Assembly: GCF_013408535.1 (NCBI RefSeq)
Contig: NZ_JACBZA010000001.1
Location: forward strand, 1,548,850-1,572,849
Direction of reading: 5' to 3'
Length of the DNA: 24,000 nt
Origin: Actinopolymorpha cephalotaxi
GTDB lineage: Bacteria; Actinomycetota; Actinomycetes; Propionibacteriales; Actinopolymorphaceae
Below, in pieces: positions 1,719 to 14,658 of this stretch. The notes under the pieces are model-generated. The model saw only the letters and a list, made by a program, of their open reading frames with translations, did not search any database and was not told where the DNA came from. How positions within the stretch are numbered: position 1 is the stretch's first letter; each line of letters starts with the position of its first letter. The position numbers and the translations under genes are program-made.

Positions 1719-2378
1719 TCAGGCCACCTGGCCGGCCACCGGAGCCAGCGCCTCGGTGAGCCGGCGTTCGACGGAGTCGAGCACGTCTGCCACCCCCACC
1801 GGCCGGCCCAGCTCGACCGACAGCGAGGTCGTGCCCGCGTCGGTGATGCCACAGGGTACGAAACGGTCGTACGCCGACAGGTCGCAGTCGCAGTTGAGCG
1901 CGAACCCGTGCATGGTTACGCCCTGGGCGACCCGCAGCCCGATGGCGGCGATCTTGCGGTCGGGGCCGCGTTCGTCGGCTCGCACCCACACCCCGCTGCG
2001 GCCCTCGATCCGGTCCGTGTGGACACCCGCGTCGGCGCAGACCGCGATCAGCGCGTCCTCGAGCCGGCGGACGAACGCCACCACGTCGATCGGCTCGGTC
2101 AGCCGCACGATCGGGTAGCCGACCAGCTGACCGGGACCGTGCCAGGTGAGCTTGCCGCCGCGGTCCACGTCGATGACGGGGGTACCGTCGACCGGGCGCT
2201 CGTGCGGCTCGGTCCGCTTGCCGGCGGTGAAGACCGCCTCGTGCTCCAGCAGAAGCACCGTGTCGGGGGCCTGGCCGGCGACGCGCGCGGCATGCACCTC
2301 GCGCTGACGTGCCCAGGCGGTGGTGTAGTCGACCGCGTCCGGCCCGAAGCCGGCCCGGACGAACCGCGGGGAACCCAT
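1719..2378 (-). CDS. lipB: Octanoyltransferase (lipoyl(octanoyl) transferase)
   Basis: 219-aa ORF with LipB motifs [20 protein letters not shown] and FVPCGI (catalytic Cys region). Its stop lies 3 nt from the convergent yjjX stop. Confidence 0.93.
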
Positions 2379-2472: not shown

Positions 2473-4092
2473 ATGCAGGGTGACTTCCACGTCGACGGAT
2501 ACGACATCGAGGGGTTGCTGGGCGCCGGACCGGCGGGTGAGGTCTGGCTGGCCCGGGAGCCGGCCTCGGGTGCACAGGCGGCCCTGAAGCGGGTCCGTCC
2601 CCGGGACACCGCCGCGCAGGAGGAGGCCGGCCGGATCGTCTCCGCGCTGGAGCCCCTGGACCACCCGCACCTGCTGCGGATCCGGGAGATGCTGCCGTAC
2701 GAGCGTGAGGTGGTGTTCGTCCTCGACTACGCCGAGGGCGGCAGCCTCGGCCAGCTGCTGCTGGCCCGGCCGGCGCTCGACCCCGGTGAGGTCGTCACGG
2801 TGGCGACCGCCATGGCCGGCGCGCTGGAAGCGGTGCACCGGCGCGGCATCGTGCACGGGGACGTGACGCCGGAGAACGTACTCTTCACCGCCGACGCCCG
2901 CCCGCTGCTCGCCGACGCCGGGCTGCTGCGACTCGTGGAGGGCGGCGAGGCTGGCACCGTCGGCTACTCCGACCCGGCTGGCCACGACGGCACGCCGCCG
3001 ACGCCGGCCGGTGACGTCTACGGGCTGGCCGCCGTCTGCTACACCGCGCTGACCGGGGCGACACCGGAGACCGGGGTCGGCCGCCGCCCGCTGCACCAGA
3101 TGGCGCCGGGGGTTCCGCCGGCGCTGGCGCACATCGTCGAGGCCGGCCTGCAGGCCCGGCCCTCACAGCGCCCGGCGATGGCGCAGTTCGGCGCCCAGCT
3201 CGCCGCGGCCTGCCCGACCTCGCCGGTCCGCTTCCCGTCCGGTTCGGGTGGCGGAGACTCCGCGCCGTTCGGTCCGAACCTCGGGCCCGGCACCGAGTCC
3301 GGCACCGACTTGGGCAGCGACTCCGGCACGCGGGGCGGATGGGATCCGGCACGGGGGAGCGGGACCCGGCCGCGCGCAGCCGGGCCGACCCCGCCACCGG
3401 ACTTCCCGAGCGCGTACGGCGACACCGGCGCGGCGCCCGCGGAAGCGGGCCACGCGCCGGCGGCCGAGGCGACGGACTCGGAAGACTCCGAGGACACCGA
3501 GGACACCGAAGGCGTCGACGAGGCCAGGCGTTCGGGCCGCCGGCGGCTGCTCCTGCTGGCCGGTGTTCCGGTGCTGCTGGTGGTGGTCGCGGTCTCCGGC
3601 GTACTCGGCTGGCGGGCCGTCCGCGAGCCCGCCGCCGATCCCACACCGACCTCGACCATGGCGGCCATGTCGCCGGCTGAGGCCCGGTGGGCGAAGGTGC
3701 TGGACGACCTCGACGTACGCCGGGCCAGGGCCTGGAAGGAGTGGAAACCCGCACTGCTCAACCAGGTCTACACGCCAGGCTCCGTCCCGATGAACGACGA
3801 CCTCACCAGGCTGCGGAAGTACGAGCAGGGTGGCGTCACCAGCGTGGACGGTCTTCGTACGCCGATCCGTTCCCTGCATGTGGTGTCGCAGGGCTCGGAC
3901 CGCGTGGTCGTGGACGCCGAGAGCCAGCTGCAGCGCTACCGCATCCAGATCGACGGCAACTACTATCCGCGCGACGGCGAGCCACCGAGGCGTTTCCGCA
4001 TCACCCTCGAACGCTCCGGCACCGACGGCGGCTGGCTGATCGCCGCGAGCAGGGAGATCGCCGGGACGACGCCGGCCGAGCCGTCCCGCTAG
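2473..4092 (+). CDS. Membrane-spanning Hanks-type Ser/Thr kinase-like protein with atypical catalytic loop (paralogue 1)
   Basis: 539 aa. Kinase-fold motifs: G-loop LGAGPAGEVW, beta3 AALK (K39), catalytic loop HGDVTPEN at 128-135 (canonical HRDLKPxN, so Arg->Gly and Lys->Thr), DAG for DFG at 148-150, GTVGYSDPA instead of GT..Y.APE, and DVYGLAAVCYTALTG (subdomain IX). These are followed by a Pro/Gly-rich linker, an acidic run DSEDSEDTEDTE, an RRSGRRR cluster plus one TM helix (about aa 358-380), and an extracytoplasmic C-domain of about 130 aa. Confidence 0.85.
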   Translation: MQGDFHVDGYDIEGLLGAGPAGEVWLAREPASGAQAALKRVRPRDTAAQEEAGRIVSALEPLDHPHLLRIREMLPYEREVVFVLDYAEGGSLGQLLLARPALDPGEVVTVATAMAGALEAVHRRGIVHGDVTPENVLFTADARPLLADAGLLRLVEGGEAGTVGYSDPAGHDGTPPTPAGDVYGLAAVCYTALTGATPETGVGRRPLHQMAPGVPPALAHIVEAGLQARPSQRPAMAQFGAQLAAACPTSPVRFPSGSGGGDSAPFGPNLGPGTESGTDLGSDSGTRGGWDPARGSGTRPRAAGPTPPPDFPSAYGDTGAAPAEAGHAPAAEATDSEDSEDTEDTEGVDEARRSGRRRLLLLAGVPVLLVVVAVSGVLGWRAVREPAADPTPTSTMAAMSPAEARWAKVLDDLDVRRARAWKEWKPALLNQVYTPGSVPMNDDLTRLRKYEQGGVTSVDGLRTPIRSLHVVSQGSDRVVVDAESQLQRYRIQIDGNYYPRDGEPPRRFRITLERSGTDGGWLIAASREIAGTTPAEPSR

Positions 4093-4110
4093 GGTTTCGG
4101 CCTCCGGCGA

Positions 4111-4209
4111 GACCGTTCGAGACCGTTCGAGACCGTTCGACAAGCGACACCGTTCGAGGCTGTTCGACGAGCGACACCGTCCGACGACGACACCGTTCAG
4201 ACCGTACGA
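4111..4209. repeat. Phased 10-bp direct-repeat array in the spacer between the two kinase paralogues
   Basis: gaccgttcga occurs three times in perfect tandem (4111-4140). Degenerate copies of the core ACCGTTCGA follow: caccgttcgag, gctgttcgacg, caccgtccgacg, caccgttcag, accgtacgag. The array lies in the 126-bp non-coding spacer between the upstream stop (ends 4092) and the downstream SD GAGAGG (4208-4213). Confidence 0.85.
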
Positions 4210-4218
4210 GAGGCGACC

Positions 4219-5844
4219 ATGGGGGCGCAGTTTCGCGTTCAGGGGTACGACCTGGGTGCGCTGATCAGCGCGAGCGCCACCGGCGAGGTGTGGGAGGCCC
4301 ACCGCCACGGCACCGGTGACCACGTTGCCCTGCGGCGGATCCGCCCCCGCACACCGGACGCACGGGAGGACGTACGCCGGTTGGCGGCCGTCCTCGCCAT
4401 GATCGGCCATCCGCACCTGGTGCGGGTGCACGAGGCGCTGCCCCTCGGGGACGAGGTCGTCTGGGTGCTGGACCACGCCGACGGCGGCAGCCTCGACCAG
4501 CTCCTGCACGGGCGCGGCCAGCTGGATCCCGGTGAGGTGGTCACCACGGCCGCACCGGTGGCCGAGGCACTGGCCGCGGCGCACGAGCGCGGGCTCCTGC
4601 ACGGCGACGTGACTCCGGAGGCGATCCTCTACACCGCCGAGGGGCGGCCCCTGCTCACCGACGTGGGCGTTCTCGCGCTGGTCGAGGGCGGCGAGAGTCT
4701 CGGCACGCACGGCTACACCGATCCCGACGGCCCGCCCGGACCCGCGACCACCCCGGCCGGGGACGTCTACGGGCTGGCCGCGGTCTGCTACACCGCGCTG
4801 ACCGGGGTGGTCCCGCGGCCGGGCCAGGCCCGCCCGCCGCTGGCCGAGGCCGTGCCCGACGCACCACCCGGCCTGCTGCACGCCGTCGGAGCGGGACTTC
4901 AGCCGGTGGCTGCTCGCCGGCCCACCGCCGCGCAGTTCGCCGACCTCCTCTACGCCGCGTGCCCGCCGGCGCCGGTGCGCTTCCCGGTCGGGCTGGTACT
5001 CACCGACGCCGACCTCGCGGCGATGACCGGCGCCTCCCCGGCTCCGGAAGCCCCTGCTGCCACCCCGGAGGACGGATCGCCTCCGGCGAGCCCGACCGCC
5101 GAGCGCACCTCGGCTGATCCGGGTGAGTTCACCGTGCCCGGTGTACCCGGCGGCCCGGACGGCGACCTGGATCTGGACCTGGACGACGAAGACGACGAAC
5201 GCCGCTCACGGATTCGCGTGATCGCCGCCGCGGCGGCCGTGGTGGTGCTGGTCGCCGGCGCGGTCGTCGGCGGGATCGCCTGGGCGAAGCGTTCCGACAA
5301 CGCTCCGGACGCCGGGCGGACGGCGGCGCCGAGCACCTCGCCGACGGCCCCGGCCGCGCCCGAGACTCCGGCCCCGAGCGCGACGAGCCGTCCCACGGCG
5401 AAGCCCACGCCGACGCTGAACAGGTCCGCCACGCCGCGGATTCCACCCGGCCCGGCCGGCGCGGAGGCCAGGTGGCGAAAGGTGCTCGCCACCCTGGACG
5501 CGCGCCGCGCGCAGGCGTACGCCACGAACGACCCGGCAGTGCTCGCGGGCGTCTACTACCCGGCCGGCTCCGACCTGGCTGCCGACGACCGCACCGAGAT
5601 CGACAAGTGCGTGCGCGCGGGCTGCCATCTGGAGGGCCTGCGGTTCGCGGTCCGGACGCTGCACGTCGACAGCGAACGCCCTGACCGGGCGGTGCTCCGG
5701 GTCGTCGACCAGTTGCAGGCGTACTCCGTGGTGTCCGACGACGGGGAACGAGTGCCCCGACCGGCCGGTGAGCCGAAGAACCGCCGGATCACGCTCGTAC
5801 GGACCGGCCAGGGCTGGCTGATCTCCCGGATAGAGGAGCGCTGA
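4219..5844 (+). CDS. Membrane-spanning Hanks-kinase-like protein, probable pseudokinase (paralogue 2)
   Basis: 541 aa, collinear with the upstream paralogue. G-loop degenerate (ISASATGEVW). The beta3 Lys is replaced by Arg (VALRR, position 39). The catalytic loop is HGDVTPEA, so both the Lys and the Mg-binding Asn are lost. DVG replaces DFG, and YTDPD replaces Y.APE. An acidic run DGDLDLDLDDEDDE, an RRSRIR cluster and one TM helix (about aa 333-355) precede a Pro/Ala/Thr-rich spacer and a C-domain related to that of paralogue 1. SD GAGAGG lies 5 nt upstream of the ATG. Confidence 0.85.
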   Translation: MGAQFRVQGYDLGALISASATGEVWEAHRHGTGDHVALRRIRPRTPDAREDVRRLAAVLAMIGHPHLVRVHEALPLGDEVVWVLDHADGGSLDQLLHGRGQLDPGEVVTTAAPVAEALAAAHERGLLHGDVTPEAILYTAEGRPLLTDVGVLALVEGGESLGTHGYTDPDGPPGPATTPAGDVYGLAAVCYTALTGVVPRPGQARPPLAEAVPDAPPGLLHAVGAGLQPVAARRPTAAQFADLLYAACPPAPVRFPVGLVLTDADLAAMTGASPAPEAPAATPEDGSPPASPTAERTSADPGEFTVPGVPGGPDGDLDLDLDDEDDERRSRIRVIAAAAAVVVLVAGAVVGGIAWAKRSDNAPDAGRTAAPSTSPTAPAAPETPAPSATSRPTAKPTPTLNRSATPRIPPGPAGAEARWRKVLATLDARRAQAYATNDPAVLAGVYYPAGSDLAADDRTEIDKCVRAGCHLEGLRFAVRTLHVDSERPDRAVLRVVDQLQAYSVVSDDGERVPRPAGEPKNRRITLVRTGQGWLISRIEER

Positions 5845-5877: not shown

Positions 5878-6771
5878 TCAACGGTGCAGCGCCCTGTCCA
5901 CCAGTGAGGAGACGTCGGGTGCGGCGAAGGTGAACCCCGCGTCCAGCAGCCGGCGCGGCACCAGCCGGACGCTGCCGAGCATCTCCGCGGAGAACTCCCC
6001 GAGCGCCGTGCGCAGCGCCACCGCGGGCACCGGCAGCAGCGTCGGCCGGCGCAGGGCCGCGCCGAGCACCTTGGTGAACTCGGCGTTGGTCGTGGGCTCG
6101 GGGATGGTGAGGTTGTACGGGCCGCGCGCGTCCGCTCGGCCGACCAGGAACCGCACGGCCGACAGCCAGTCGTCCAGCGCGATCATCGGGAGGTACTGCC
6201 GGCCCGATCCGAGCCGGCCGCCCGCACCGAGCCGGAACTGCAGCTCCATCACCTTGAACGCCCCGCCGGAACGGTCGAACACCGGTGACGTACGCAGGTG
6301 CACGACCCGGACGCCGGCGCGTTCGGCGGGATCGGTGGCCGCCTCCCAGTCGCGGCACAGCTCGGCGAGGAAGCCGTCGCCGGGAGGTGAGTCCTCGTCC
6401 AGCAGCAGGTCGCCGCGGTCCTTGCCGTAGTAGCCGGTGGCGCTCCCGGAGACGAACACCGGCGGCTCGGGCAGGTCGGCCAGCGCCCGGGCGAGCGTCG
6501 AGGTGGTGGCGAGCCGGCTGGTCCGGATCGTCTGCCGGTAGGACGGCGTCCACGGCACCCGGCCGATGCTGGCCCCGGCGAGGTTGACCACCGCGTCGGC
6601 GCCGGCGAGCACCTCGGCGTCGACCTGGCCCCGGTCGGGGTCCCACTGTGCCTGGTCCGCGGCCTGCGGCGGCCGGCGTACCAGCTGGGTCACCTCGTGC
6701 CCCTCGCCGGTGAGCCGCGTACGCAGCGCCTGTCCGAGGAACCCCGACGCACCCGCCAGAACGAATCTCAT
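5878..6771 (-). CDS. TIGR01777-family (YfcH-like, epimerase-fold with DUF1731) oxidoreductase
   Basis: Rossmann N-terminus MRFVLAGASGFLGQ when started at ATG 6771; the ORF-track start 6813 adds 14 aa before the GxxGxxG. Family-typical SGSATGYYG, GGRLGSGRQY.P.I.LDDW and TNAEF motifs. Occupies the same position relative to E2 and lipB as Rv2216, as I recall it. Confidence 0.85.
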   Translation of the reverse strand: MRFVLAGASGFLGQALRTRLTGEGHEVTQLVRRPPQAADQAQWDPDRGQVDAEVLAGADAVVNLAGASIGRVPWTPSYRQTIRTSRLATTSTLARALADLPEPPVFVSGSATGYYGKDRGDLLLDEDSPPGDGFLAELCRDWEAATDPAERAGVRVVHLRTSPVFDRSGGAFKVMELQFRLGAGGRLGSGRQYLPMIALDDWLSAVRFLVGRADARGPYNLTIPEPTTNAEFTKVLGAALRRPTLLPVPAVALRTALGEFSAEMLGSVRLVPRRLLDAGFTFAAPDVSSLVDRALHR

Positions 6772-6874
6772 GCGGCCAGCATGCCCTGGGAGGCGGCCCG
6801 CATGCTCAGCCAAGATCAGGTCCCGGACAGCTCGCAGTTGGCTCGGGGCTGGCTCGGGCAGGTTCAGGACGCGC

Positions 6875-6975: not shown

Positions 6976-8781
6976 TCAGCTGCTGAACTCCGCGGCCACG
7001 CTGCCGTCCTCCAGCCGGGTCTTGACCGCGACCAGGAACCTCGCGGCGTCCGCCCCGTCGATCAGCCGGTGGTCGTAGCTCAGCGCGAGGTAGACCATGT
7101 GCCGGATGGCGATGGTCTCCCCGAGCGGGGTGTCGACCACGACCGGCCGCTTCACCACCGAGCCGGTGCCCAGGATGGCGACCTGCGGCTGAAAGAAGAT
7201 CGGCGTGTCGAACAACGCGCCCCGGCTGCCGGTGTTGGTGATGGTGAACGTGCCGCCGGAGATCTCGTTCGGCGTGATCTTGTTGGTACGGGTGCGCTCG
7301 GCCAGGTCGGTGATCCGCTTGGCGAGCCCGGTGACGTTGAGGTCACCGGCGTCGTGGATGACCGGCACCATCAGCCCGCGCTCGGTGTCGACCGCGATCA
7401 CGAGGTTCTCGTTGGCGTGGTAGGTCACCTCGCCCTTGTCCAGGTCCAGGCTGGCGTTGAGCTTCGGGTGCTCCTTGAGTGCCTCCAGCGCCGCCTTGGC
7501 GAAGAACGGCAGGAAGGACAGCTTGATGCCCTCCCGCTGCTGGAAGCCGCGCTTGGCCCGGTCACGGATCCGGGCGATGGCCGTCACGTCGACCTCGACC
7601 ACCGTGGTGAGCTGGGCGGTGTTCTGCAGCGACTCGTGCACCCGCTGGGCGATCACCTTGCGGGGCCGGCTGAGCTTCTCGGTCGTGCCGCGCAGCGGGC
7701 TGGGCTGGGCCGGCGCGGACTGGACGGCCGGCGCCGCACCGGGCAGGCCCTCGGCGGACTCCGCCTGCTGGCTGGTGGCCTTCTCCGCCTCCTGCCGGGC
7801 CTTCGCCGCGTCCAGCACGTCCTGCTTGCGGATGCGCCCGCCGACGCCGGTGCCGGACACCGAGGACAGGTCGACCTGGTGCTCGGCCGCCAGCTTGCGT
7901 ACCAGCGGAGTGACGTACGCCGCCGATCCCTCGTCGGTGGCGGCCGGCTTCTGCGCCGCGGGGCGGGCCGGCTCCTGGCGGGCCGCCGGCTGCTCGGGCT
8001 CACGCCTCGGCTCGGGCTTGGCCTCAGGCTTCGGCTCGGCCTTCTGCTCCGGCTTCGGCTCCGGCTCGGCCTTCTGGGCCGGCTTCTCCTCGGCCTGCTC
8101 CGGCTCGGTGGGCTTCGGCGCGGCGTGCCGGGGGGCCGCCGCGGCACCGCTGGAGATCACACCGAGTTCGGCGCCGACCTCGACGGTCTCGTCCTCGGCG
8201 ACGGTGATCTGCACCAGGGTGCCGGCGCTCGGGGCCGGGATCTCGGTGTCCACCTTGTCGGTGGAGACCTCCAGCAGCGGCTCGTCGACCTCGACCTTGT
8301 CGCCGACCTGCTTCAGCCAGCGGGTGACGGTGCCCTCGGTGACGCTCTCGCCGAGCGCGGGCAGGGTGACCGAGGTGCCCTCGGCGGACCCGCCGTCCGA
8401 GGCGTTCGCGGACGCCGGGGCGGGCTCCTCCTGCTCCTGCGCGGCCGCGTCCTCCGCCGGCTCCTCCTCCTGAGCGGGTTCCTGCTCGGACTCCTGCTCG
8501 GCCTGGGCGGAGTCGTCCGCGCCGCCGTCCTCGGCCTGTTCGCCCTCCGAACCGATGACGGCGAGTTCGGCGCCGACCTCGACGGTCTCGTCCTCACCGA
8601 CGGTGATCTGCAGCAGGACGCCGGCACTCGGCGCGGGAATCTCGGTGTCGACCTTGTCCGTGGAGACCTCGAGCAGCGGCTCGTCAGCCTGGACGGTTTC
8701 GCCCACCTGCTTCAGCCACCGCGTGACAGTTCCCTCGGTGACGCTCTCCCCTAGGGCGGGAAGGGTGACGGAGACCGGCAT
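6976..8781 (-). CDS. sucB: Dihydrolipoamide acyl(succinyl)transferase, E2 component with two lipoyl domains
   Basis: 601 aa. Contains two lipoyl domains (both [21 protein letters not shown]...[19 protein letters not shown]), Ala/Pro/Glu-rich linkers, a peripheral-subunit-binding segment ([34 protein letters not shown]) and a catalytic domain with [16 protein letters not shown]. Confidence 0.95.
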
Positions 8782-8833: not shown

Positions 8834-10225
8834 TCAGCCGTGCACGTGCAGCGGCTTTCCGGCGAGGGCCAGGTGAGCCTCGCCGATCGCTTCGCTCTGG
8901 GTCGGGTGCATGTGGACCAGCTGGGCGACCTCCTCGGGGAACGCCTCCCAGTTGTAGATCAGTTGGGCCTCGCCGACGAGTTCGCCGACCCGGGCACCCA
9001 CCATGTGGATGCCGACGACCGGGCCGTTCTTGGCCCGGACCACCTTCACGAAGCCCTGCGTCTTCAGGATCTGGCTCTTGGGGTTGCCGGCCAGGTCGTA
9101 GGTGAACGTCTCGATCCCGTCCGCCCCGTGCTTCTCCTTGGCCGCGGCCTCGGTGAGGCCCATCGACGCCACCTCGGGGTCACAGTAGGTCACCCGTGGG
9201 ATGCCGGTCTCGTCGATCACCGGCGGGTCGAGCCCCGCGATGTCCTCGGCGACGAAGATGCCCTGCTGGAAGCCGCGGTGGGCCAACTGCAGGCCGAACA
9301 CGATGTCGCCGGCCGCGCGTACGCCCGGAACGCTGGTGCGCAGCCGCTCGTCGACGCGGACGAACCCGCGGTCCAGCTCCACACCCACGTCCTCGTAGCC
9401 GAGGTCGGCGGTGGACGGGCCGCGGCCCACGGCGACGAGGAGTAGCTCGGCGTCGTAGGTCTCACCGGACTCGACGGTCAGGCGTACACCCTGGTCGGTG
9501 TGTTCGACGCTCTTGTAGGGCGTGTTGGTCTTGTAGGTGATGCCGCGCTTGCGGAAGCCGCGTTCGACGGCCTTGGAACAGGCCTCGTCCTCGGCGGCCA
9601 GTAGCCGGGGGAGTGCCTCGATGATCGTCACGTCGGCGCCGAAGGAACGCCAGACGCTGGCGAACTCGACCCCGATCACGCCGCCGCCGAGCACGATGAC
9701 CGAGGACGGAACGTCGGTGAGCTGCAGGGCGTGCTCACTGGTGAGGACGCGCTCGCCGTCGACGTCGAGGCCGGGCAGGGTGCGGGAGTAGGACCCGGTG
9801 GACAGCAGGATGTTCGGTGCTTCGTACCTCGTGCCGTTGACCTGGACGGCGTTCGGCGCGACCAGCCGGCCCGCGCCCTCGACGACCGTGACGCCACGGG
9901 CCTTGAGGAGTCCGCCGACGCCGCGGAACGCGCGGTTGACGACGCCGTCCTTGTATTTGTTGACCCCCGCCATGTCGACGCCCTCGAACGTCGAGCGGAT
10001 GCCGAAGTCGGCGCCGTCGCGGGCGTTGTCGGCGATCTCGGCGGCGTGCAGCAGCGCCTTGGTGGGGATGCAGCCGCGGTGCAGGCAGGTGCCGCCGAGC
10101 TTGTCCTTCTCCACCAGCGCGACCCGCAGGCCGAGCTCGGCCGCGCGCAGTGCGCACGCGTACCCGCCGCTGCCTCCGCCAAGGATCACAAGGTCGAACG
10201 AGGTGCCGGCGTCGTTGTCCGCCAC
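8834..10225 (-). CDS. lpd: Dihydrolipoyl dehydrogenase (E3)
   Basis: The ORF track gives 8834-10333. GTG 10225 is preceded by GGAGGA (10230-10235, complement) at 4-nt spacing. It yields (M)ADNDAGTSFDLVILGGGSGGY, the usual Lpd N-terminus. Also present: FAD motif GGGSGG, redox disulfide CLHRGC, and C-terminal HPTQSE. Confidence 0.93.
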   Translation of the reverse strand: MADNDAGTSFDLVILGGGSGGYACALRAAELGLRVALVEKDKLGGTCLHRGCIPTKALLHAAEIADNARDGADFGIRSTFEGVDMAGVNKYKDGVVNRAFRGVGGLLKARGVTVVEGAGRLVAPNAVQVNGTRYEAPNILLSTGSYSRTLPGLDVDGERVLTSEHALQLTDVPSSVIVLGGGVIGVEFASVWRSFGADVTIIEALPRLLAAEDEACSKAVERGFRKRGITYKTNTPYKSVEHTDQGVRLTVESGETYDAELLLVAVGRGPSTADLGYEDVGVELDRGFVRVDERLRTSVPGVRAAGDIVFGLQLAHRGFQQGIFVAEDIAGLDPPVIDETGIPRVTYCDPEVASMGLTEAAAKEKHGADGIETFTYDLAGNPKSQILKTQGFVKVVRAKNGPVVGIHMVGARVGELVGEAQLIYNWEAFPEEVAQLVHMHPTQSEAIGEAHLALAGKPLHVHG

Positions 10226-10251
10226 GGGTTCCTCCGTGCCGTTGATCGAAC

Positions 10252-10308
10252 CTGACTGAACTGACTGCGTACTGACTGCGTACTGACTGGGTGTCGACGG
10301 TGTCGACG
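10252..10308. repeat. Short tandem repeats in the lpd 5' leader/promoter region
   Basis: CTGACTG occurs at 10252, 10261, 10272 and 10283 (spacing 9/11/11 bp; the two central units ctgactgcgta are identical). It is followed directly by GTGTCGACG x2 (10291-10308). The repeats lie upstream of the SD-supported lpd start. Confidence 0.8.
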
Positions 10309-10579
10309 GCCCCGGGCCGGCGGGAACCGGCACGGGGTCGTCACGCCACCGTCATCTTTCCACCCTCGGCGCCCAAGTGCCCAAAGGGTCCGTCCCGGCC
10401 GCGTCGGCGTGGTAGCCGGACCGGCGAATCGTGCGGATTCGTACGGGCTTGGGGGTGTCTGTGACCGGGTAGAGGTCGCTCGTCGCCAGGGTGGAGTCCG
10501 GGCCTTCCGGACGCCCGGAACCTGCGGCACACTTCGTGCGTTCGATCGACAAGTCAGCTCGGCTGCGAAGGAGGTCGCG

Positions 10580-10948
10580 ATGCCGCGATGGTTCCGGCGG
10601 CGCGCCGACTCGGCGCCTGCCCGCGGCCGGGGATCCGGTGCGAGCGAGGACGTCGCCCACCTGACGGAGTTCGCCCGCACCCGCCGCGGGGTGGAGGGCT
10701 TCGTCGAGCCGCGGACGACCGTGACGGAGACCACCCTGCTGCTGGTCGCCGACGACGGGGAGTGGACCCGGCGCCGGGTGCCCGACGCCGCGAGGGCGCA
10801 CGAGTTCGCCAACCGGCTCGGCATCCCCAGCTACGACGCGCAGGTGGTCGGCTACCCCCAGCGCATGCGCGCCTGGAACACCCGGCGCGCGGCCGCCGAG
10901 AAGCAGGCGAAGTCCCTGGGGCCGACCGCTCCCGGCGAGGTGGGCTGA
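10580..10948 (+). CDS. Conserved hypothetical protein (122 aa)
   Basis: ATG 10580 is preceded by GAAGGAGG (10567-10574). GC3 bias is strong, and the N-terminus is basic (MPRWFRRR). I cannot assign a family. The part of ORF 10409-10948 upstream of this ATG looks non-coding. Confidence 0.65.
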   Translation: MPRWFRRRADSAPARGRGSGASEDVAHLTEFARTRRGVEGFVEPRTTVTETTLLLVADDGEWTRRRVPDAARAHEFANRLGIPSYDAQVVGYPQRMRAWNTRRAAAEKQAKSLGPTAPGEVG

Positions 10949-11013
10949 CCCACCCCACCGAGAGCGGTTCGTGCCTCGGGCGTTCGGGCCGGGTGTGCTC
11001 CGGCTCGGCCGGG

Positions 11014-12525
11014 CTACAGCTCGCCCACGGCGGCGGCCTCGGCCAGGCCGACCAGCGTGCGCACGCCGCTGCCCGTCCCGCCGACGGGGGTGTAGCCCCA
11101 CGCGGCGCTGTCGTTGTACGACGGACCGGCGATGTCCAGGTGCGCCCACCGGATCCCCTCGCCGACGAACTCGTTCAGGAAGCTCGCGGCCACCAGGGCA
11201 CCCCCCAGCCGGCCGCGGGAGACGTTGGCGAGGTCGGCGACCTTGGAGTCCAGGCTCTCCCTGGTGCCCTCGGGGATGGGCAGCGGCCAGCCCTCCTCAC
11301 CGGCCCGGCCGGCGGTCTGGCGTACGAACGAGTTGAAGTCCTCGTCGTTGCCCATGATCCCGAACGTCCGGCCGCCGAGCGCGACCACGCAGGCGCCGGT
11401 GAGGGTGGCCACGTCGACGATGACGTCGGGCTTGTCCTCGCTGGCCCGGGCGATCGCGTCGGCCAGGACGAGCCGGCCCTCGGCGTCGGTGTTGAGCACC
11501 TCCACCGTCTTGCCGCCGTAGATGGTCAGCACGTCGGAGGGCCGCTGGGCGGACCCGGACGGCATGTTCTCCGCCATCGGTGCCCAGGCCGTCACCGCGA
11601 CCGGGAGCTGCAGGTCGGCGATCGCGGTGACCGCCGCGAGCACCGCCGCCGCACCGGCCATGTCGCTCTTCATGGTGAGCATGCCCTCGTTGGGCTTGAG
11701 GGAGATGCCGCCGGTGTCGAAGGTGATTCCCTTGCCGACGAAGACCAGGTGCTTCTTGGCGCGGGCCGGCTTGTAGCTCAGCCGGACGACCCGCGGGTCG
11801 CGTTCGGAGCCCTGGCCGACGCCGAGGGTTCCGCCGTACCCCTTGGCCTCCATCGCCTTGCGGTCGAGCACCTCGACGGTGAGCCCGGCCCGCTTGCCGG
11901 CCGCCTTCGCCTCGTCGGCGAACACCTCGGGGTAGAGGTCGGAGGGTGCGGTGTTGACCCAGTCGCGGGTGAGGTTGACCGCCGCCGCCACTGCCTCGGC
12001 TCGCGTCAACGCGGCCTTGACAGCCTTGTCGCGTACCTTGCCGGTCAGCACGGTGACCGCGGAGATCGGCGCCGGCCGCTTGTCGGCGTTGGTGCGGTAA
12101 CGGTCGAAGGCGTACGACCCGAGCAGTGCGCCCTCGGCGAGCGCGCCGACACTCTCGGCCGCGCCGTCGCCCACCGCGAAGGCCACGGTCTCCGCCTTGC
12201 CGGCCAGCCGGCGTACGACGGCGCCGGCGGCCCGGCGCAGCGCCTCGGCCGCGGGCTCGTCACCGCCCAGCCCGACCGCCGCGACCACGGCGGCGTCCAC
12301 GCCGTCGGGGGAGGGGAGCAGCGTCACCTCCTCCGCCTTGCCCTTCGCGCCGAGCGCGGTGAGGGTCGCGGCGAGCCGGCCGCCGAACGCCTTGTCGAGT
12401 TCGCGCGCTCCGGAGTCGAGCGTCACTTCCCGGTCACCGGGCGACACGCCGACGACCAGCGCGTCCACCTTCACCGAGGGGGCGGACGCCTTGCGGACGG
12501 AGATGCTCGGACTTTTCACACTCAC
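11014..12525 (-). CDS. pepA: Leucyl aminopeptidase (peptidase M17)
   Basis: The M17 part of the chimeric track ORF 11014-13824 starts at GTG 12525, with SD GAGGAG at 12535-12540 (complement). Motifs VGKGITFDTGGISLKP and NTDAEGRLVLADA are present. The 503-aa length is typical. Confidence 0.92.
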   Translation of the reverse strand: MSVKSPSISVRKASAPSVKVDALVVGVSPGDREVTLDSGARELDKAFGGRLAATLTALGAKGKAEEVTLLPSPDGVDAAVVAAVGLGGDEPAAEALRRAAGAVVRRLAGKAETVAFAVGDGAAESVGALAEGALLGSYAFDRYRTNADKRPAPISAVTVLTGKVRDKAVKAALTRAEAVAAAVNLTRDWVNTAPSDLYPEVFADEAKAAGKRAGLTVEVLDRKAMEAKGYGGTLGVGQGSERDPRVVRLSYKPARAKKHLVFVGKGITFDTGGISLKPNEGMLTMKSDMAGAAAVLAAVTAIADLQLPVAVTAWAPMAENMPSGSAQRPSDVLTIYGGKTVEVLNTDAEGRLVLADAIARASEDKPDVIVDVATLTGACVVALGGRTFGIMGNDEDFNSFVRQTAGRAGEEGWPLPIPEGTRESLDSKVADLANVSRGRLGGALVAASFLNEFVGEGIRWAHLDIAGPSYNDSAAWGYTPVGGTGSGVRTLVGLAEAAAVGEL

Positions 12526-12657
12526 GCTTGATCTCTCCTCGTTGCCGATTCGTCGCGGATATCGTGCGGGGGAACGGATGTGAGAACTTCGAAACGCCTG
12601 TCCGGCGGATGCTACGCCGTGGGTCCCCCAGGGATCCGGTTCGGTAGGTTCGCGGTC

Positions 12658-13752
12658 ATGAAACGTTCGCCGCTGCACGACCGGCACCAGGCCCTGGGCG
12701 CGAAGTTCGCGGAGTTCGGCGGCTGGGAGATGCCGCTGGAGTACGCCGGAGGAGGCGTGCTGCGCGAGCACGCGGCGGTGCGGTCCGGCGCCGGCGTCTT
12801 CGACGTGAGCCATCTCGGCAAGGCGAGGGTCAGCGGACCGGGCGCGGCGGACTACGTCGACTCCACCCTGAGCAACTCCCTGGCCAGGATCGAGCCGGGC
12901 AAGGCGCAGTACACCCTGTGCTGCGACGACGCGACCGGCGGTGTCGTGGACGACCTGATCGCCTACCTGCGCGGACCGGACGAGGTGTTCCTCGTGCCGA
13001 ACGCCGCCAACTGCGCCGAGGTCGTCCGCCGGCTGGCCGCCCAGGCGCCGGACGGGGTGGAGGTCGTCGACCTGCACGAGGAGTTCGTGGTGCTCGCCGT
13101 CCAGGGACCGCGCAGCGACGACGTCCTCGCCGCCGCCGGGCTGCCGACCGGGCACGGGTACATGTCCTTCGTCCAGGCCGACTGGCAGGGGGCGCCGGTC
13201 ACCGTCTGCCGTACCGGCTACACCGGCGAACGCGGGTACGAACTGGTGGCGCCGGCGCACGCGGGGACGGCCCTGTGGGACGCGATCCTCGCCGCCGGGC
13301 AGGCGTACGACATCGCGGCCTGCGGACTCGGCGCCCGCGACACGCTGCGCACCGAGATGGGCTACCCCCTGCACGGGCAGGACATCTCCCTCGACATCAC
13401 CCCGGTGCAGGCCCGCCTCGGCTGGGCCGTCGGCTGGAAGAAGCCGGCGTTCTGGGGCCGGTCGGTGCTGTCGGCGGAGCGCGCCGCCGGGCCCAGCCGG
13501 CGGCTGCTCGGACTGGAGGCGGCCGGGCGGGGGATTCCCCGGCCGGGCATGTCCGTGGTCGACGCCGACGGTTCGCCGGTGGGCGTGGTGACCAGCGGGA
13601 CGTTCTCCCCGACCCGGCGGGTGGGGGTCGGGCTGGCGCTGCTGGACGCCGGGGTGAGCGAGGGCTCGGAGGTCGCGGTCGACGTACGCGGCCGGCGGGA
13701 GGCGTTCACGGTCCGCCGCCCGCCCTTCGTAGAGGCCTCGCCCACGTCCTGA
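12658..13752 (+). CDS. gcvT: Glycine cleavage system aminomethyltransferase (T protein)
   Basis: ATG 12658 gives [29 protein letters not shown], a typical GcvT N-terminus. Also present: [10 protein letters not shown] and [11 protein letters not shown]. Length 364 aa. Confidence 0.93.
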
Positions 13753-13786: not shown

Positions 13787-14530
13787 TCAGCCCGATACGT
13801 CCACAGCCTCGCCGAACGTGCCACCGGCGCGGAGCGTGGCGATCAGCTCAAGTACGCCGGTCCGGCCGCCGTGGGAGCTTGCCCAGCGGCTCACCACACA
13901 GGCGGCCTGCCGGTACGGCTGGTCCGTGCCGCCCTTGACCGCGGCGGCCCACTTCTCCGTGACGATCGGCAGGGCCTTCCGATAGGGCAGGCGGCATCGG
14001 TCCGCTTCGGACGAGGGCTTCAGGTAGCGGGAGTCGCCCGAGACCAGCACGGCCAGTCCTTCGTCGAACCAGTGCGGCACATCTGCGCGCGTCCTGCCCA
14101 GCCGTTCGTGGAACTCCACGTGGGACAGCTCGTGGGTGGCGATGGTGCGGTTTGCACCGGCGGGTGCGAGCATCAGGGCCGAGGTACCGAACGCCTTTCC
14201 CCTCTCACTGCCACCACCGATCCGCCGGTAGCACGCCGCAGTGCTACAGATCAGCACTCGCGGACGCGTCTTCAGGTCGCCGTAGAACGCGGCGATGTCG
14301 CTTTCCGCCTCATCGACAATTCGCCGGTACGCCGTGTCGCGTCGGTCGGTGTAGATGTCACCGCCCAGTCCAAAGAGCCCGTAGCACCGCGGGCACAGCG
14401 TCGCCGCGATCGCCGGTCGGGTCGCGGCCACCAGCCCGGCGGACACCAGCACGAAGACCACCACCATCCCGGCCACGACCCGCCATCGCCGCCTGCTGTT
14501 CAGGTCGTCGTCTCCGCCTGCCTGGCGCAC
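13787..14530 (-). CDS. Membrane-anchored HExxH (gluzincin-like) metallopeptidase, Cys-rich
   Basis: HELSHVEFHE followed 14 residues later by WFDEGLA, which resembles the M1/MA-clan pattern HExxH...E (third ligand) with WL.EG.A. An N-terminal RRRWR cluster plus a TM helix predicts an extracytoplasmic catalytic domain with 7 Cys, including CPRC. I prefer GTG 14530, which has AGGAGG at 14536-14541 (complement) at 5-nt spacing, over the track start 14581. Confidence 0.68.
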   Translation of the reverse strand: MRQAGGDDDLNSRRRWRVVAGMVVVFVLVSAGLVAATRPAIAATLCPRCYGLFGLGGDIYTDRRDTAYRRIVDEAESDIAAFYGDLKTRPRVLICSTAACYRRIGGGSERGKAFGTSALMLAPAGANRTIATHELSHVEFHERLGRTRADVPHWFDEGLAVLVSGDSRYLKPSSEADRCRLPYRKALPIVTEKWAAAVKGGTDQPYRQAACVVSRWASSHGGRTGVLELIATLRAGGTFGEAVDVSG

Positions 14531-14658
14531 GTCGGCCTCCTGTCCTTCCCGGGGTCCGCCCCCGTGATCATGCGGGATCACCTGTGATCAACGCGGGCCT
14601 TCCGGTCGAGGTTTCGGGGACGACCCGTGTCCCTGGGTGCCCCCCGGGACAGTCGCGG

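What the first reader, a model, noticed from the sequence alone, without database searches (positions are those of the whole stretch)
2473..5844. Tandem paralogous transmembrane kinase-like genes: one atypical kinase plus a more decayed pseudokinase, each with an unassigned extracytoplasmic domain
Two adjacent same-strand genes (539 and 541 aa) are collinear. The diagnostic residues fall at identical positions in both: beta3 position 39, catalytic loop 128-135, and DxG 148-150. The 18-residue block PAGDVYGLAAVCYTALTG is identical between them. Both read HGDVTPE where Hanks kinases have HRDLKPxN, so the catalytic-loop Lys is Thr in both, and both lack the APE Glu (YSDPA / YTDPD). Copy 1 keeps the G-loop GAGPAG, Lys39, Asp130, Asn135 and Asp148. 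Copy 2 additionally has SASATG for the G-loop, Arg39 for the ATP-anchoring Lys, and Ala135 for the Mg-binding Asn. Both share the same architecture: an acidic patch, an Arg cluster, one TM helix, and an alpha+beta-looking ectodomain of about 130 aa (ARW.KVL..LD.RRA.A ... GWLI). I cannot place that ectodomain in a named family; an NTF2/SnoaL-like fold is only a guess. The pair sits between lipB and the E2/E3 genes, a position that holds no such genes in the mycobacterial synteny I remember. A kinase/pseudokinase heteropair acting as a transmembrane sensor is a reasonable hypothesis.
Basis: partly seen in the sequence, partly recalled or inferred. Interest (0 to 1): 0.7.

Follow-up and report, generated by a model that had tools for sequence, protein, structure and literature searches.

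The report
Tandem non-RD receptor kinase-like paralogues
Two neighbouring genes in Actinopolymorpha cephalotaxi are duplicated copies of a widespread but unstudied actinobacterial membrane receptor (unusual kinase-like domain inside, NTF2-like sensor outside); one copy has lost more catalytic residues yet is still strongly conserved, so the pair shows how bacterial pseudokinases evolve.

Summary
Two collinear same-strand genes (539 and 541 aa) are paralogues, and the residue mapping holds.

The interpretation needs re-framing.
- HGD for HRD, Thr for the catalytic-loop Lys, D-x-G for DFG and DP for APE are not decay. They are hallmarks of an old orthologous group.
- All 68 fetched loci with this catalytic loop lie beside lipB and/or the epimerase-E2-lpd genes, across many actinobacterial orders. 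None of the 15 loci holding only canonical HRD-K kinases does.
- Single-copy members keep Lys39, the alphaC Glu, Asp130, Asn135 and Asp148.

In Actinopolymorphaceae the gene duplicated into two or three tandem copies.
- Every copy, including copy 1, lost the alphaC Glu.
- The copy 2 lineage lost Asn135 straight after duplication. It lost Lys39 only recently.
- Copy 2 is under purifying selection (kinase-like domain dN/dS 0.13-0.24) and gained a Cys-x4-Cys pair in its ectodomain.
- The window's lineage lost a third, more decayed copy.

The ectodomain models at pLDDT 97 as an NTF2-like fold closest to the ARC6/PARC6 intermembrane-space domains. No Pfam family covers it.

A ligand-driven hetero-oligomeric receptor is plausible but untested. 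I found no description of the family in the papers read. I rate it a new variant of a known kind, of moderate interest.

The parts
2473..4092 (+). Copy 1 gene (539 aa): kinase-like domain, disordered linker, acidic patch, Arg cluster, TM helix, NTF2-like ectodomain
   Evidence: ORF; Pkinase 1.4e-25; orthologues P0001-P0018 at 49-75% identity (52-75% among those matched over at least 86% of the query), all in Actinopolymorphaceae
2494..3237 (+). Copy 1 kinase-like domain (aa 8-255). It has GAGPAG, K39, I55 in place of the alphaC Glu, HGDVTPEN (D130, T132, N135), DAG (D148), and YSDPA in place of APE
   Evidence: Alignments to PknI and PknA; motif tables; AF2 model pLDDT 90.4 with a complete bilobal fold; best TM-score among the 50 listed matches 0.78, to PknA 4ow8
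3466..3546 (+). Copy 1 juxtamembrane acidic patch (aa 332-350, EATDSEDSEDTEDTEGVDE) followed by the Arg cluster RRSGRRR (aa 352-358)
   Evidence: Read directly from the sequence. The acidic patch is enriched in the duplicated Actinopolymorphaceae copies (median 6.5 acidic residues against 2 in single-copy orthologues). The Arg cluster is family-wide
3547..3609 (+). Copy 1 transmembrane helix (aa 359-379). The Arg cluster on its N-terminal side places the C-terminal domain outside the cell (positive-inside rule, an inference)
   Evidence: Best 21-aa hydropathy window, mean Kyte-Doolittle 2.67
3670..4065 (+). Copy 1 NTF2-like ectodomain (aa 400-531)
   Evidence: AF2 model pLDDT 97.3, pTM 0.90; Foldseek best hits ARC6 and PARC6 IMS domains, TM 0.62-0.66, E 5e-5; profile finds 4030 cluster representatives
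4093..4218 (+). 126-nt spacer between the copies. It carries an array of 6 copies (4 exact, 2 with one mismatch), plus further degenerate units, of (G)ACCGTTCGA(G) at 4108-4209 and an RBS-like GAGAGGC before the ATG. No terminator-like site, so the genes are probably co-transcribed
   Evidence: The array is not conserved in orthologous spacers
4219..5844 (+). Copy 2 gene (541 aa), same architecture. It is identical to the Actinopolymorpha cephalotaxi protein P0036
4240..4983 (+). Copy 2 kinase-like domain (aa 8-255). It has SASATG, R39, L55 in place of the alphaC Glu, HGDVTPEA (D130, T132, A135), DVG (D148), and YTDPD
   Evidence: dN/dS 0.13 (vs L007) and 0.24 (vs A. pittospori)
5158..5280 (+). 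Copy 2 acidic patch (aa 314-327, DGDLDLDLDDEDDE), Arg cluster RRSRIR (aa 328-333) and TM helix (aa 334-354)
5446..5841 (+). Copy 2 NTF2-like ectodomain (aa 410-541), which follows a Pro/Ala/Thr-rich extracytoplasmic linker
   Evidence: 42% identity to the copy 1 ectodomain by BLASTP, 46% in alignment A1; dN/dS 0.19-0.28
5608..5625 (+). Copy-2-lineage-specific Cys464-x4-Cys469 pair in the ectodomain (DKCVRAGCH). By alignment it maps to the end of helix 3 and the start of strand 1 of the copy 1 model
   Evidence: Present in all 10 copy-2-lineage sequences in the alignment, the window's included (8 distinct genomes or contigs, Tenggerimyces among them). Absent from all copy 1, upstream-copy and single-copy orthologues (mapping)
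1719..2378 (-). lipB (octanoyltransferase), transcribed divergently from copy 1. It is the conserved left-hand neighbour
   Evidence: tblastn 55-95% identity in 58 of the fetched loci; Pfam LplA-B_cat on the homologous genes
5878..6813 (-). Epimerase/DUF1731 gene (Rv2216-like), convergent with copy 2. It is the conserved right-hand neighbour and is followed by E2 (6976..8781) and lpd (8834..10333)

Best explanation
SHOWN. The two genes are tandem paralogues of an old, unnamed actinobacterial orthologous group of bitopic membrane proteins. From N to C terminus each protein has a cytoplasmic Hanks-type kinase fold, a disordered linker, a basic cluster, one TM helix and an NTF2-like domain. The basic cluster places the NTF2-like domain outside the cell. 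The kinase fold has a family-specific non-RD catalytic loop, HGD-x-(S/T)-P-x-N, with D-x-G for DFG and DP for APE. The gene sits at a fixed site between lipB and the epimerase-E2-lpd genes.

In Actinopolymorphaceae the gene duplicated before the Actinopolymorpha/Tenggerimyces split. A second duplication, from the copy 1 lineage, produced a third upstream copy. The window's lineage later lost that third copy.

Catalytic residues were lost stepwise. The alphaC Glu went in all copies. The Mg-binding Asn went in the copy 2 lineage. In close relatives of this genome, copy 2 also lost the beta3 Lys and the G-loop glycines. All domains remain under purifying selection.

INFERRED. The proteins work as receptors. 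The NTF2-like cone binds an extracytoplasmic ligand or a partner's peptide tail and drives oligomerisation, as in ARC6/PARC6. The co-transcribed copies form hetero-oligomers. In these, copy 1 (K39, D130, N135 and D148 retained) keeps nucleotide binding and perhaps weak phosphotransfer. Copy 2 acts as a non-catalytic allosteric or scaffolding partner with its own ectodomain specificity, possibly gated by a disulfide.
For: Paralogy and residue mapping.

Family hallmarks and synteny: all 68 loci with the HG-type loop have lipB, epimerase, E2 or lpd in their flanks, and none of the 15 HRD-K-only loci does. In 57 single-copy orthologues K39 is kept in 53, the alphaC Glu in 50, D130 in 55, N135 in 53 and D148 in 56; position 132 is S or T in 50, A in 6 and G in 1, never K.

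Coupling of the two domains: nearly all full-length hits of the ectodomain profile carry the HG-type loop.

Folds.

Duplication history: NJ bootstrap 100% for all Actinopolymorphaceae copies, 100% for copy 2 plus Tenggerimyces copy 2, and 96% for the upstream copy plus copy 1. Three-copy arrays occur in L001, L008, L009 and L010, and two-copy arrays in the window, L007, L002 and L013.

Selection: copy 2 kinase-like domain dN/dS 0.13-0.24 and ectodomain 0.19-0.28.

Co-expression: gaps of 10-142 nt between copies, a conserved RBS-like piece and no terminator-like site.

Co-occurrence: copy 2 is never found without copy 1 in complete loci.

[quoted passage not shown] Copy 2 has a lineage-specific C-x4-C.
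Against: No interaction, nucleotide-binding or activity test could be run, and no multimer prediction was available.

Copy 1 lacks the alphaC Glu, the catalytic-loop Lys and the APE Glu, so it may be inactive too.

A sister Actinopolymorphaceae lineage (L006, P0051-P0060) has one copy only. That copy has lost the catalytic Asp (HGAVTPEN, DTA), so the family can evidently function without an active partner encoded next to it.

Arrays of three copies, and loss of the third, show that the stoichiometry is not fixed.

The ectodomains have diverged more than the kinase-like domains (42% against 56% identity). That fits independent ligand specificities as well as it fits heterodimerisation.

Synteny with lipB and E2 may be plain vertical inheritance. 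The genes are not in one operon with their neighbours: they are divergent from lipB and convergent with the epimerase gene.
Confidence: 0.45

Rival explanations
1. Independent receptors. After duplication the copies diverged in ligand specificity, and each works as a homo-oligomer as the single-copy ancestor does. The tandem arrangement is only the footprint of duplication.
For: The ectodomains diverged more than the kinase-like domains: 42% against 56% identity, with paralogue ectodomain dN/dS 0.74. Copy 2 has its own C-x4-C. Copy number varies between 1, 2 and 3, and the window's lineage lost the upstream copy.
Against: Copy 2 lacks the Mg-binding Asn in every orthologue. In this genome it also lacks the beta3 Lys and the G-loop glycines, so a catalytic output of its own is unlikely. 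Copy 2 never occurs without copy 1, and the gap is only 10 nt in Tenggerimyces.
Confidence: 0.3
2. All Actinopolymorphaceae copies, copy 1 included, are non-catalytic. The family signals by ligand-controlled scaffolding, for example by being phosphorylated on its Ser/Thr-rich linker by other kinases and recruiting partners, as the MviN pseudokinase domain does. No phosphotransfer of its own is involved.
For: The alphaC Glu is lost in every Actinopolymorphaceae copy. The sole copy in the L006 lineage has HGA in place of HGD. HGA, HGN, HGE and HGG variants recur across the wider family, so catalysis is repeatedly dispensable. The MviN precedent is described in PMC12599244.
Against: Copy 1 orthologues conserve GxGxxG, K39, D130, N135 and D148 without exception. 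Without a nucleotide-dependent function, that conservation is hard to explain. Single-copy orthologues keep the full set, alphaC Glu included.
Confidence: 0.25
3. Small-molecule (APH/choline-kinase-like) kinases. The HGD...N loop without the catalytic-loop Lys resembles the HGDxxxxN motif of aminoglycoside phosphotransferases, which I recall from my own knowledge.
For: Weak sub-threshold Pfam hits of copy 1 to APH (E 0.014) and ABC1 (E 0.048).
Against: Sequence and fold are Hanks-type. Pkinase scores 90.7 bits. The best PDB relatives are PknI, PknA and PknB at 1e-19 to 1e-20. The model superposes on PknA at TM 0.78, and all 50 top fold matches are protein kinases. The alphaF block and the GT-x-GY P+1-like segment are present.
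Confidence: 0.03
4. Copy 2 is a decaying duplicate on its way to becoming a pseudogene.
For: It has lost more canonical residues than copy 1.
Against: The ORF is intact. It has been conserved since before the Actinopolymorpha/Tenggerimyces split. dN/dS is 0.13-0.24 in the kinase-like domain and 0.19-0.28 in the ectodomain. It has gained a conserved lineage-specific motif.
Confidence: 0.02

Closest known systems
Mycobacterium tuberculosis PknI (kinase domain PDB 5m06-5m09, 5xka)
   Same: It is the best solved relative of copy 1 by sequence (E 1e-20). It is a bitopic actinobacterial Hanks-type kinase with a short activation segment and a non-Lys residue at the catalytic-loop Lys position (the chains read H-x-DVNPAN).
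   Different: The deposited chains read HNDVNPAN and HADVNPAN. That wild-type PknI keeps the HRD Arg is my own knowledge. PknI keeps the alphaC Glu. From my own knowledge it is not at the lipB-E2 locus. Its solved extracellular domain did not appear among the top 50 fold matches of this ectodomain.
PknA/PknB-type receptor Ser/Thr kinases of Actinobacteria
   Same: The architecture is the same: kinase, juxtamembrane linker, one TM helix and an extracellular sensor. They give the best fold superposition (PknA 4ow8, TM 0.78) and are the best sequence relatives of copy 2.
   Different: They are canonical HRD-x-K-x-x-N, DFG and APE kinases with an alphaC Glu and activation-loop Thr phosphorylation, and they carry PASTA or other sensors. 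Here the loop is non-RD, there is no catalytic-loop Lys, copy 1 has no Ser or Thr between D-x-G and the GT motif, and the sensor is NTF2-like.
ARC6/PARC6 intermembrane-space domains (PDB 5had, 5d9r, 5u9o, 6jzn)
   Same: They are the closest solved folds to the ectodomain (TM 0.62-0.66, E 5e-5 to 4e-4). Like this domain, each is the C-terminal NTF2-like domain of a bitopic membrane protein and faces the extracytoplasmic compartment. In PARC6, a partner's C-terminal tail inserts into the pocket and induces dimerisation, and a disulfide gates the interaction (PMC9945983).
   Different: Sequence identity is only 13-16%. There is no Pfam-level match. The cytoplasmic module is different (a J-like/FtsZ-binding region rather than a kinase). 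No partner peptide is known here.
Bacterial pseudokinase families ActPs1, ActPs2 and ActPs3/MviN (O'Boyle et al., PMC12599244)
   Same: They are actinobacterial Hanks-derived domains with degraded catalytic motifs, often followed by a C-terminal TM helix. ActPs2 has a beta3 Lys-to-Arg change like copy 2. MviN shows scaffold-type signalling.
   Different: ActPs1 and ActPs3 have lost all three catalytic motifs. ActPs2 has HRD Asp changed to Asn, a DFG deletion, and insertions of 32 aa and about 250 aa. Copy 2 keeps D130 and D148 and has no such insertions. Neither that review nor the bSTK atlas text mentions NTF2, HGD or tandem pairs.
Kinase-TM-extracellular NTF2-like architectures (DUF3828/DUF4878/DUF3887; Eberhardt et al. 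2013, PMC3924330)
   Same: The general design is the same: an extracellular non-enzymatic NTF2-like ligand-binding domain linked through a membrane span to an intracellular Ser/Thr kinase domain.
   Different: Those are different NTF2 families, and none of the three DUFs is among the 25 Pfam families listed. They are not tied to a non-RD kinase type, to the lipB-E2 locus or to tandem paralogues.
Eukaryotic non-RD receptor kinases with co-receptors, and kinase/pseudokinase receptor pairs such as HER2/HER3 (own knowledge)
   Same: This is a functional analogy only: non-RD or catalytically impaired receptor subunits that signal through hetero-oligomers with a more competent partner.
   Different: There is no homology beyond the kinase superfamily, and the analogy is untested here.

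Membership tests
Hanks-type (eukaryotic-like) protein kinase superfamily, Pfam PF00069 | Profile match above the curated gathering score | tested here: met
   90.7 bits (copy 1) and 74.7 bits (copy 2) against a cut-off of 31.7. Only profile positions 1 to about 200 of 263 are covered.
Hanks-type (eukaryotic-like) protein kinase superfamily, Pfam PF00069 | Bilobal kinase fold with alphaC, alphaE, alphaF and alphaH-I | tested here: met
   Copy 1 aa 1-258: AF2 pLDDT 90.4, pTM 0.90. Foldseek gives PknA 4ow8 TM 0.78, and all top hits are protein kinases. The alphaG helix is reduced. Copy 2 is inferred by 56% identity.
Catalytically canonical Ser/Thr kinase | beta3 Lys (VAIK) | tested here: inconclusive
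   Copy 1 has K39 (met). Copy 2 has R39 (not met). Other copy 2 orthologues still have Lys.
Catalytically canonical Ser/Thr kinase | alphaC Glu that pairs with the beta3 Lys | tested here: not met
   I55 in copy 1 and L55 in copy 2. The residue is Glu (RREA) in 50 of 57 single-copy orthologues.
Catalytically canonical Ser/Thr kinase | HRD-x-K-x-x-N catalytic loop (Arg, Asp, Lys, Asn) | tested here: not met
   Both copies have G129 for Arg and T132 for Lys, and D130 is present in both. N135 is present in copy 1 and is Ala in copy 2.
Catalytically canonical Ser/Thr kinase | DFG Asp and APE Glu | tested here: inconclusive
   D148 is present in both copies (DAG and DVG, with the Phe lost). The APE Glu is absent in both (SDPA and TDPD).
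Catalytically canonical Ser/Thr kinase | Phosphotransfer or ATP binding | not testable with these tools
   Needs biochemistry.
Pseudokinase by the catalytic-triad criterion (lacks at least one of beta3 Lys, HRD Asp, DFG Asp) | Loss of at least one triad residue | tested here: inconclusive
   Copy 2 meets it (K39R). Copy 1 does not, because it keeps all three. Copy 2 orthologues outside the close clade keep the triad but lack Asn135.
ActPs2 pseudokinase family (PMC12599244) | beta3 Arg plus HRD Asp-to-Asn, DFG deletion and large insertions after beta3 and in the activation loop | tested here: not met
   Copy 2 shares only the beta3 Arg. D130 and D148 are present and there are no insertions (one search compared).
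NTF2-like superfamily | alpha+beta cone fold: three helices packed on a curved 5-7-stranded sheet | tested here: met
   Model pLDDT 97.3. Foldseek probability is 1.00 to ARC6, PARC6, Tim44-C, RsgI9 NTF2, the CaMKII hub and SnoaL-type structures, among others. Weak sequence hits to DUF4440 (4 of 45 members), SnoaL_3 (2 of 45) and TcaA NTF2 (2 of 45).
ARC6-like IMS domain | Sequence-profile membership | tested here: not met
   Neither ectodomain gives any Pfam hit even at E up to 10. The ARC6-like model is not among the 25 families listed for the 45 members scanned. The relation is by fold only.
ARC6-like IMS domain | Binding of a partner's C-terminal peptide in the pocket, with induced dimerisation | not testable with these tools
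   No multimer prediction or coordinates were available.
lipB-adjacent HGD/NTF2 receptor kinase-like orthologous group (defined here) | HG(D)-x-(S/T/A)-P catalytic loop, one TM helix, this NTF2-like ectodomain, and a location between lipB and epimerase/E2/lpd | tested here: met
   Both window copies have all four features. 68 of 68 HG-type loci are syntenic. The ectodomain profile recovers HG-type kinases almost exclusively.

The most novel reading that the evidence does not exclude
The single-copy ancestor is a conserved actinobacterial transmembrane sensor that is functionally coupled to the lipoate-dependent 2-oxoacid dehydrogenase genes it always sits beside. For example, it could report an extracytoplasmic or cell-envelope cue to E2/Lpd, to lipoylation, or to a GarA/OdhI-type regulator. 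In Actinopolymorphaceae it has evolved into an obligate hetero-oligomer of two or three progressively 'dead' kinase-like subunits. These would signal mainly by ligand-induced assembly, with disulfide gating in copy 2, rather than by phosphotransfer.
Probability: 0.12. Interest if true: 0.75.

Novelty: new variant of a known kind. Interest (0 to 1): 0.5.

Why it matters
[quoted passage not shown] This locus offers a natural series within one orthologous group:
- single-copy proteins with an intact catalytic set;
- a sole-copy lineage that has lost the catalytic Asp;
- two- and three-copy arrays with graded loss of the alphaC Glu, Asn135, Lys39 and the G-loop glycines.

All of these are under purifying selection and sit at one fixed chromosomal site. 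That makes the question 'what does a kinase fold do once catalysis is dispensable?' directly testable with paired constructs.

The work also defines a large family with no Pfam model: a non-RD kinase plus an ARC6-like NTF2 ectodomain, with at least 4030 clusters at 50% identity. Its invariant position beside lipB, E2 and lpd is a lead for a possible link between envelope sensing and central metabolism.

Tried and rejected
- Ectodomain family assignment. Pfam at E up to 10 on both ectodomains gave nothing, and NCBIfam on the full-length proteins gave only one marginal hit (Rv0361_Cterm, E 0.36) over the TM region. A profile search of PDB sequences found only chance matches.
- Genome scan. The ectodomain alignment A1 was too divergent for the search for related loci, so the kinase alignment A2 was used instead.
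- Stand-alone TM+NTF2 proteins. The short hits in the profile search looked like them, but the two I checked lie 170-190 nt from the edges of 1.0-1.7 kb contigs. They are most simply truncated gene calls and were not accepted as evidence.
- Spacer repeat as a regulatory site. The (G)ACCGTTCGA(G) array is absent from orthologous spacers, and across the whole window the motif is not enriched beyond chance (11 matches against 7.2 expected). I rejected it as part of the system.
- Gene conversion in the identical 18-aa block. 52 of 54 nt are identical (dS 0.14 against 0.72 across the domain). But the block is equally conserved in orthologues of both copies, so selection explains it. A short conversion tract remains possible.
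- APH-like small-molecule kinase. Rejected by fold and sequence.
- Published pseudokinase families ActPs1-3, GLW, CP1, DYD and DLHK. The ActPs1-3 and GLW descriptions do not fit. I did not read the CP1, DYD and DLHK sections in full; a term search of the whole review found no mention of NTF2, HGD or tandem pairs. The atlas supplement was not held, so I could not see which atlas family, if any, these proteins fall in.
- First tree attempt. It timed out and was redone with a fast distance method.

Full report
**1. Observation**

The two ORFs are exactly as described: 2473..4092(+) of 539 aa and 4219..5844(+) of 541 aa. They lie in DNA of about 74% G+C. Copy 2 is identical to a protein of Actinopolymorpha cephalotaxi, P0036, which identifies the source organism.

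BLASTP between the copies gives 56% identity over residues 1-258 (E 3e-83). It gives 42% over the C-terminal domain (E 3e-21). Both match Pfam Pkinase well above threshold, but only up to about profile position 200 of 263.

Alignments to solved kinases (PknI for copy 1; PknA and PknB for copy 2) confirm the residue mapping:

| Motif | Copy 1 | Copy 2 |
|---|---|---|
| G-loop | GAGPAG | SASATG |
| beta3 position 39 | Lys | Arg |
| Catalytic loop 128-135 | HGDVTPEN | HGDVTPEA |
| DFG position 148-150 | DAG | DVG |
| APE position | SDPA | TDPD |

- The identical 18-residue block is real. It is offset by one residue in copy 2.
- Each protein has an acidic patch, then an Arg cluster, then one strongly hydrophobic 21-residue segment.
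- One thing was missed. The alphaC Glu that anchors the beta3 Lys is Ile55 in copy 1 and Leu55 in copy 2.

**2. The ectodomain**

Neither ectodomain hits any Pfam model, even at E up to 10. No PDB sequence is related to the family profile.

I built a 45-sequence alignment (A1). With it, AlphaFold2 gives a model with pLDDT 97.3 and pTM 0.90: three helices followed by a curved sheet.

Foldseek against the PDB places the model in the NTF2-like superfamily:
- The best matches are the intermembrane-space domains of ARC6 and PARC6 (TM 0.62-0.66).
- Next come Tim44-C, the NTF2 domain of the anti-sigma factor RsgI9, the CaMKII hub and SnoaL-type proteins.
- A few family members hit DUF4440, SnoaL_3 or TcaA-NTF2 weakly.

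A profile search of 1.84 billion representative proteins finds 4030 members at E up to 1e-3 and 2716 at E up to 1e-10. Nearly every full-length hit carries an HG(D/A/N/E)-x-(S/T)-P catalytic loop. Only one of the 150 listed has HRDLKPSN. The short hits that I checked are truncated gene calls at contig edges.

**3. The kinase-like domain**

With alignment A2, copy 1 residues 1-258 model at pLDDT 90.4 as a complete bilobal kinase. The activation segment is short and the alphaG helix is reduced. The model superposes best on M. tuberculosis PknA (TM 0.78), and every one of the 50 listed hits is a protein kinase. This excludes an APH-like small-molecule kinase, despite the HGD...N loop.

**4. What the family is**

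A scan of species-representative genomes with A2 returned 79 loci. I then ran tblastn with the window's neighbouring proteins and tabulated the motifs. The result is a perfect partition:

| Catalytic loop type | Loci | With lipB/epimerase/E2/lpd in the flanks |
|---|---|---|
| HG-type | 68 | 68 |
| HRD-x-K only | 15 | 0 |
| HRD-K kinase plus a degenerate second copy | 2 | 0 |

The syntenic loci come from these groups:
- Actinopolymorphaceae, Frankiales, Geodermatophilus, and Mycobacteriales and Pseudonocardiales MAGs;
- Kineococcus, Jiangellales and Acidothermaceae;
- Micrococcales and relatives (Micrococcus terreus, Arthrobacter, Tersicoccus, Nesterenkonia, Yaniella, Kribbia);
- an Acidimicrobiales MAG.

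Contig look-ups with precomputed Pfam annotation show the same gene order. It runs lipA, (NTPase), lipB, kinase-like gene(s), epimerase/DUF1731, E2, lpd, then M17 peptidase and gcvT.

In the 57 single-copy orthologues outside Actinopolymorphaceae:

| Residue | State | Count |
|---|---|---|
| Position 39 | Lys | 53/57 |
| alphaC, position 55 | Glu | 50/57 |
| Position 129 | Gly | 55/57 |
| Position 130 | Asp | 55/57 |
| Position 132 | Ser or Thr (never Lys) | 50/57 |
| Position 135 | Asn | 53/57 |
| Position 148 | Asp | 56/57 |

So non-RD, no catalytic-loop Lys, D-L-G and DP-for-APE are ancestral hallmarks of a conserved protein that may well bind nucleotide. They are not decay specific to this pair.

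A search with an outgroup member found 984 relatives at E up to 1e-10, all with generic names only.

**5. What happened in Actinopolymorphaceae**

The motif tables and a bootstrapped NJ tree give this order of events:
- (a) The alphaC Glu was lost in the common ancestor. It is absent from every copy and from the single-copy sister lineage L006/P0051-P0060. That sister lineage has additionally lost the catalytic Asp (HGAVTPEN, DTA).
- (b) A first duplication took place before the Actinopolymorpha/Tenggerimyces split (copy 2 clade 100% bootstrap). The copy 2 lineage then lost Asn135 at once (now Ala, His or Thr) and gained a Cys-x4-Cys pair in the ectodomain. The pair is present in all copy-2-lineage sequences and in no other family member.
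- (c) A second duplication from the copy 1 lineage (96% bootstrap) produced an upstream copy. It is found in A. pittospori, A. alba, A. sp. B11F2 and two metagenomic contigs. It is the most degraded copy: His, Gln or Arg at position 39, HGDLSPDH or HGALTPET-type loops, and DFG changed to SGL or DIG.
- (d) The window's clade nests beside three-copy A. pittospori, so it lost that upstream copy.
- (e) K39R and loss of the G-loop glycines in copy 2 are recent. They are confined to A. cephalotaxi, A. rutila, A. singaporensis and close MAGs.

The juxtamembrane acidic patch is enriched in the duplicated copies. The median is 6.5 acidic residues against 2 in single-copy orthologues, and each window protein has 12.

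**6. Selection and expression**

Nei-Gojobori dN/dS, window genes against L007 and against A. pittospori:

| Domain | Copy 1 | Copy 2 |
|---|---|---|
| Kinase-like | 0.27 and 0.21 | 0.13 and 0.24 |
| Ectodomain | 0.49 and 0.28 | 0.19 and 0.28 |
| Linker | 0.41-0.48 | 0.46-0.53 |

Copy 2 is therefore a maintained protein and not a decaying gene.

Spacers between the copies are 10-142 nt (195 nt between the upstream copy and copy 1 of A. alba), with a conserved RBS-like element. No terminator-like or sigma-70-like sites were found. This suggests co-transcription, which is an inference.

The window's 126-nt spacer contains a species-specific array of (G)ACCGTTCGA(G) units. The array is not conserved elsewhere.

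**7. Mechanism**

Shown: the architecture, the folds, the evolutionary history, the selection and the synteny.

Inferred: a receptor whose NTF2-like cone binds a ligand or a partner's tail and controls oligomerisation. The closest structural relatives do exactly this. In PARC6, insertion of the PDV1 tail induces dimerisation, and an intramolecular disulfide gates it (PMC9945983).

I think a hetero-oligomer is the most likely arrangement. Copy 1 would retain nucleotide binding and perhaps weak catalysis. Copy 2 would be an allosteric or scaffolding subunit. I give the whole statement a confidence of 0.45, and the heteropair step itself is less certain than that.

Two rivals are serious:
- Independent receptors with diverged ligand specificity.
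- Wholly non-catalytic scaffolding, for which the sole-copy HGA lineage is the strongest argument.

The link to lipB, E2 and lpd is an association only. The genes are divergent from lipB and convergent with the epimerase gene, so vertical inheritance of an old insertion site would be enough to explain the synteny.

**8. Comparison with what is known**

- Kinase-TM-extracellular NTF2 designs are known in general, but for other NTF2 families (PMC3924330).
- The 2025 review of bacterial pseudokinase families and the bSTK atlas preprint describe ActPs1-3, GLW, CP1, DYD and DLHK. The families I read in detail (ActPs1-3 and GLW) do not fit. Neither text mentions NTF2, HGD or tandem pairs.
- I could not check the atlas supplementary tables, so the group may already be an unnamed or unremarked atlas family.

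**9. Verdict**

The pair is a lineage-specific tandem expansion, with graded catalytic loss under purifying selection, of a large receptor family for which I found no published description. The family combines a non-RD kinase-like domain with an ARC6-like NTF2 ectodomain and sits at a fixed site beside lipB, E2 and lpd. I rate it a new variant of a known kind, with interest 0.5.

**Caveats**
- dS estimates at high G+C are rough.
- The tree is NJ on Kimura-corrected distances.
- The kinase model used only 15 sequences.

Noticed in passing
window 4093-4218 (array 4108-4209): The copy 1 to copy 2 spacer is built of (G)ACCGTTCGA(G) units: 4 exact and 2 one-mismatch matches, plus further degenerate copies (TRF period 10, 3.3 copies at 100% match; period 27, 2.5 copies). 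The closest MAG (L007) has only a trace, and other Actinopolymorpha spacers lack it. It looks like a recent local expansion and not a conserved regulatory site.
   Followed up: yes
window 5608-5625 (copy 2 aa 464-469): A Cys-x4-Cys pair in the ectodomain is conserved in all 10 copy-2-lineage sequences in the alignment (the window's included) and is absent from every other family member. It may form an extracytoplasmic disulfide. PARC6, the closest fold, is gated by a disulfide.
   Followed up: partly
loci L008 (A. pittospori), L009 (A. alba), L010 (A. sp. B11F2), L001, L011: A third, upstream paralogue lies between lipB and the copy 1 orthologue. It has His, Gln or Arg at the beta3 Lys position and degraded catalytic and DFG motifs. 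The window's lineage has lost it; only 94 nt separate lipB from copy 1 here.
   Followed up: yes
locus L006 and proteins P0051-P0060 (Actinopolymorphaceae MAGs): This sister lineage has a single copy in the same slot, and its catalytic Asp is replaced (HGAVTPEN, DFG changed to DTA). A sole-copy pseudokinase argues that catalysis is dispensable for the family's function.
   Followed up: partly
window 3466-3522 and 5158-5199: The juxtamembrane acidic patches (12 Asp/Glu in the 29 residues upstream of the Arg cluster in each window protein) are a trait of the duplicated Actinopolymorphaceae copies. The median is 6.5 against 2 in single-copy orthologues. Their function is unknown.
   Followed up: partly
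window 3004-3057 and 4753-4806 (the identical 18-aa block): 52 of 54 nucleotides are identical between the paralogues (block dS 0.14 against 0.72 across the domain). This could be a short gene-conversion tract, or strong constraint combined with codon bias. The block is the alphaF helix and is conserved in orthologues of both copies.
   Followed up: partly
window 1122-1715 (+): A 197-aa NTPase_I-T-type (inosine/xanthosine triphosphatase-like) gene lies between lipA and lipB. tblastn found it only in the Actinopolymorphaceae loci. In the other loci no such gene was found between or near lipA and lipB.
   Followed up: partly
window 11017-13824 (-) and 16504-19302 (-): These are very long ORFs whose Pfam domains start far inside: M17 peptidase from residue 457 of 936, and a double ABC_tran from residue 383 of 933. 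The true starts are probably internal. The antisense 647-aa ORF at 10588..12531 has no Pfam hit and is probably spurious. gcvT (12580..13752), an HTH_3 protein (14152..14994) and a DUF3043 protein (20978..21976) are also present.
   Followed up: partly
locus L086 (1.7-kb metagenomic contig): A truncated TM+NTF2 gene call is followed after 11 nt by another gene on the same strand that runs to the contig end. This resembles the tightly packed tandem arrangement seen in Tenggerimyces (10-nt gap).
   Followed up: no
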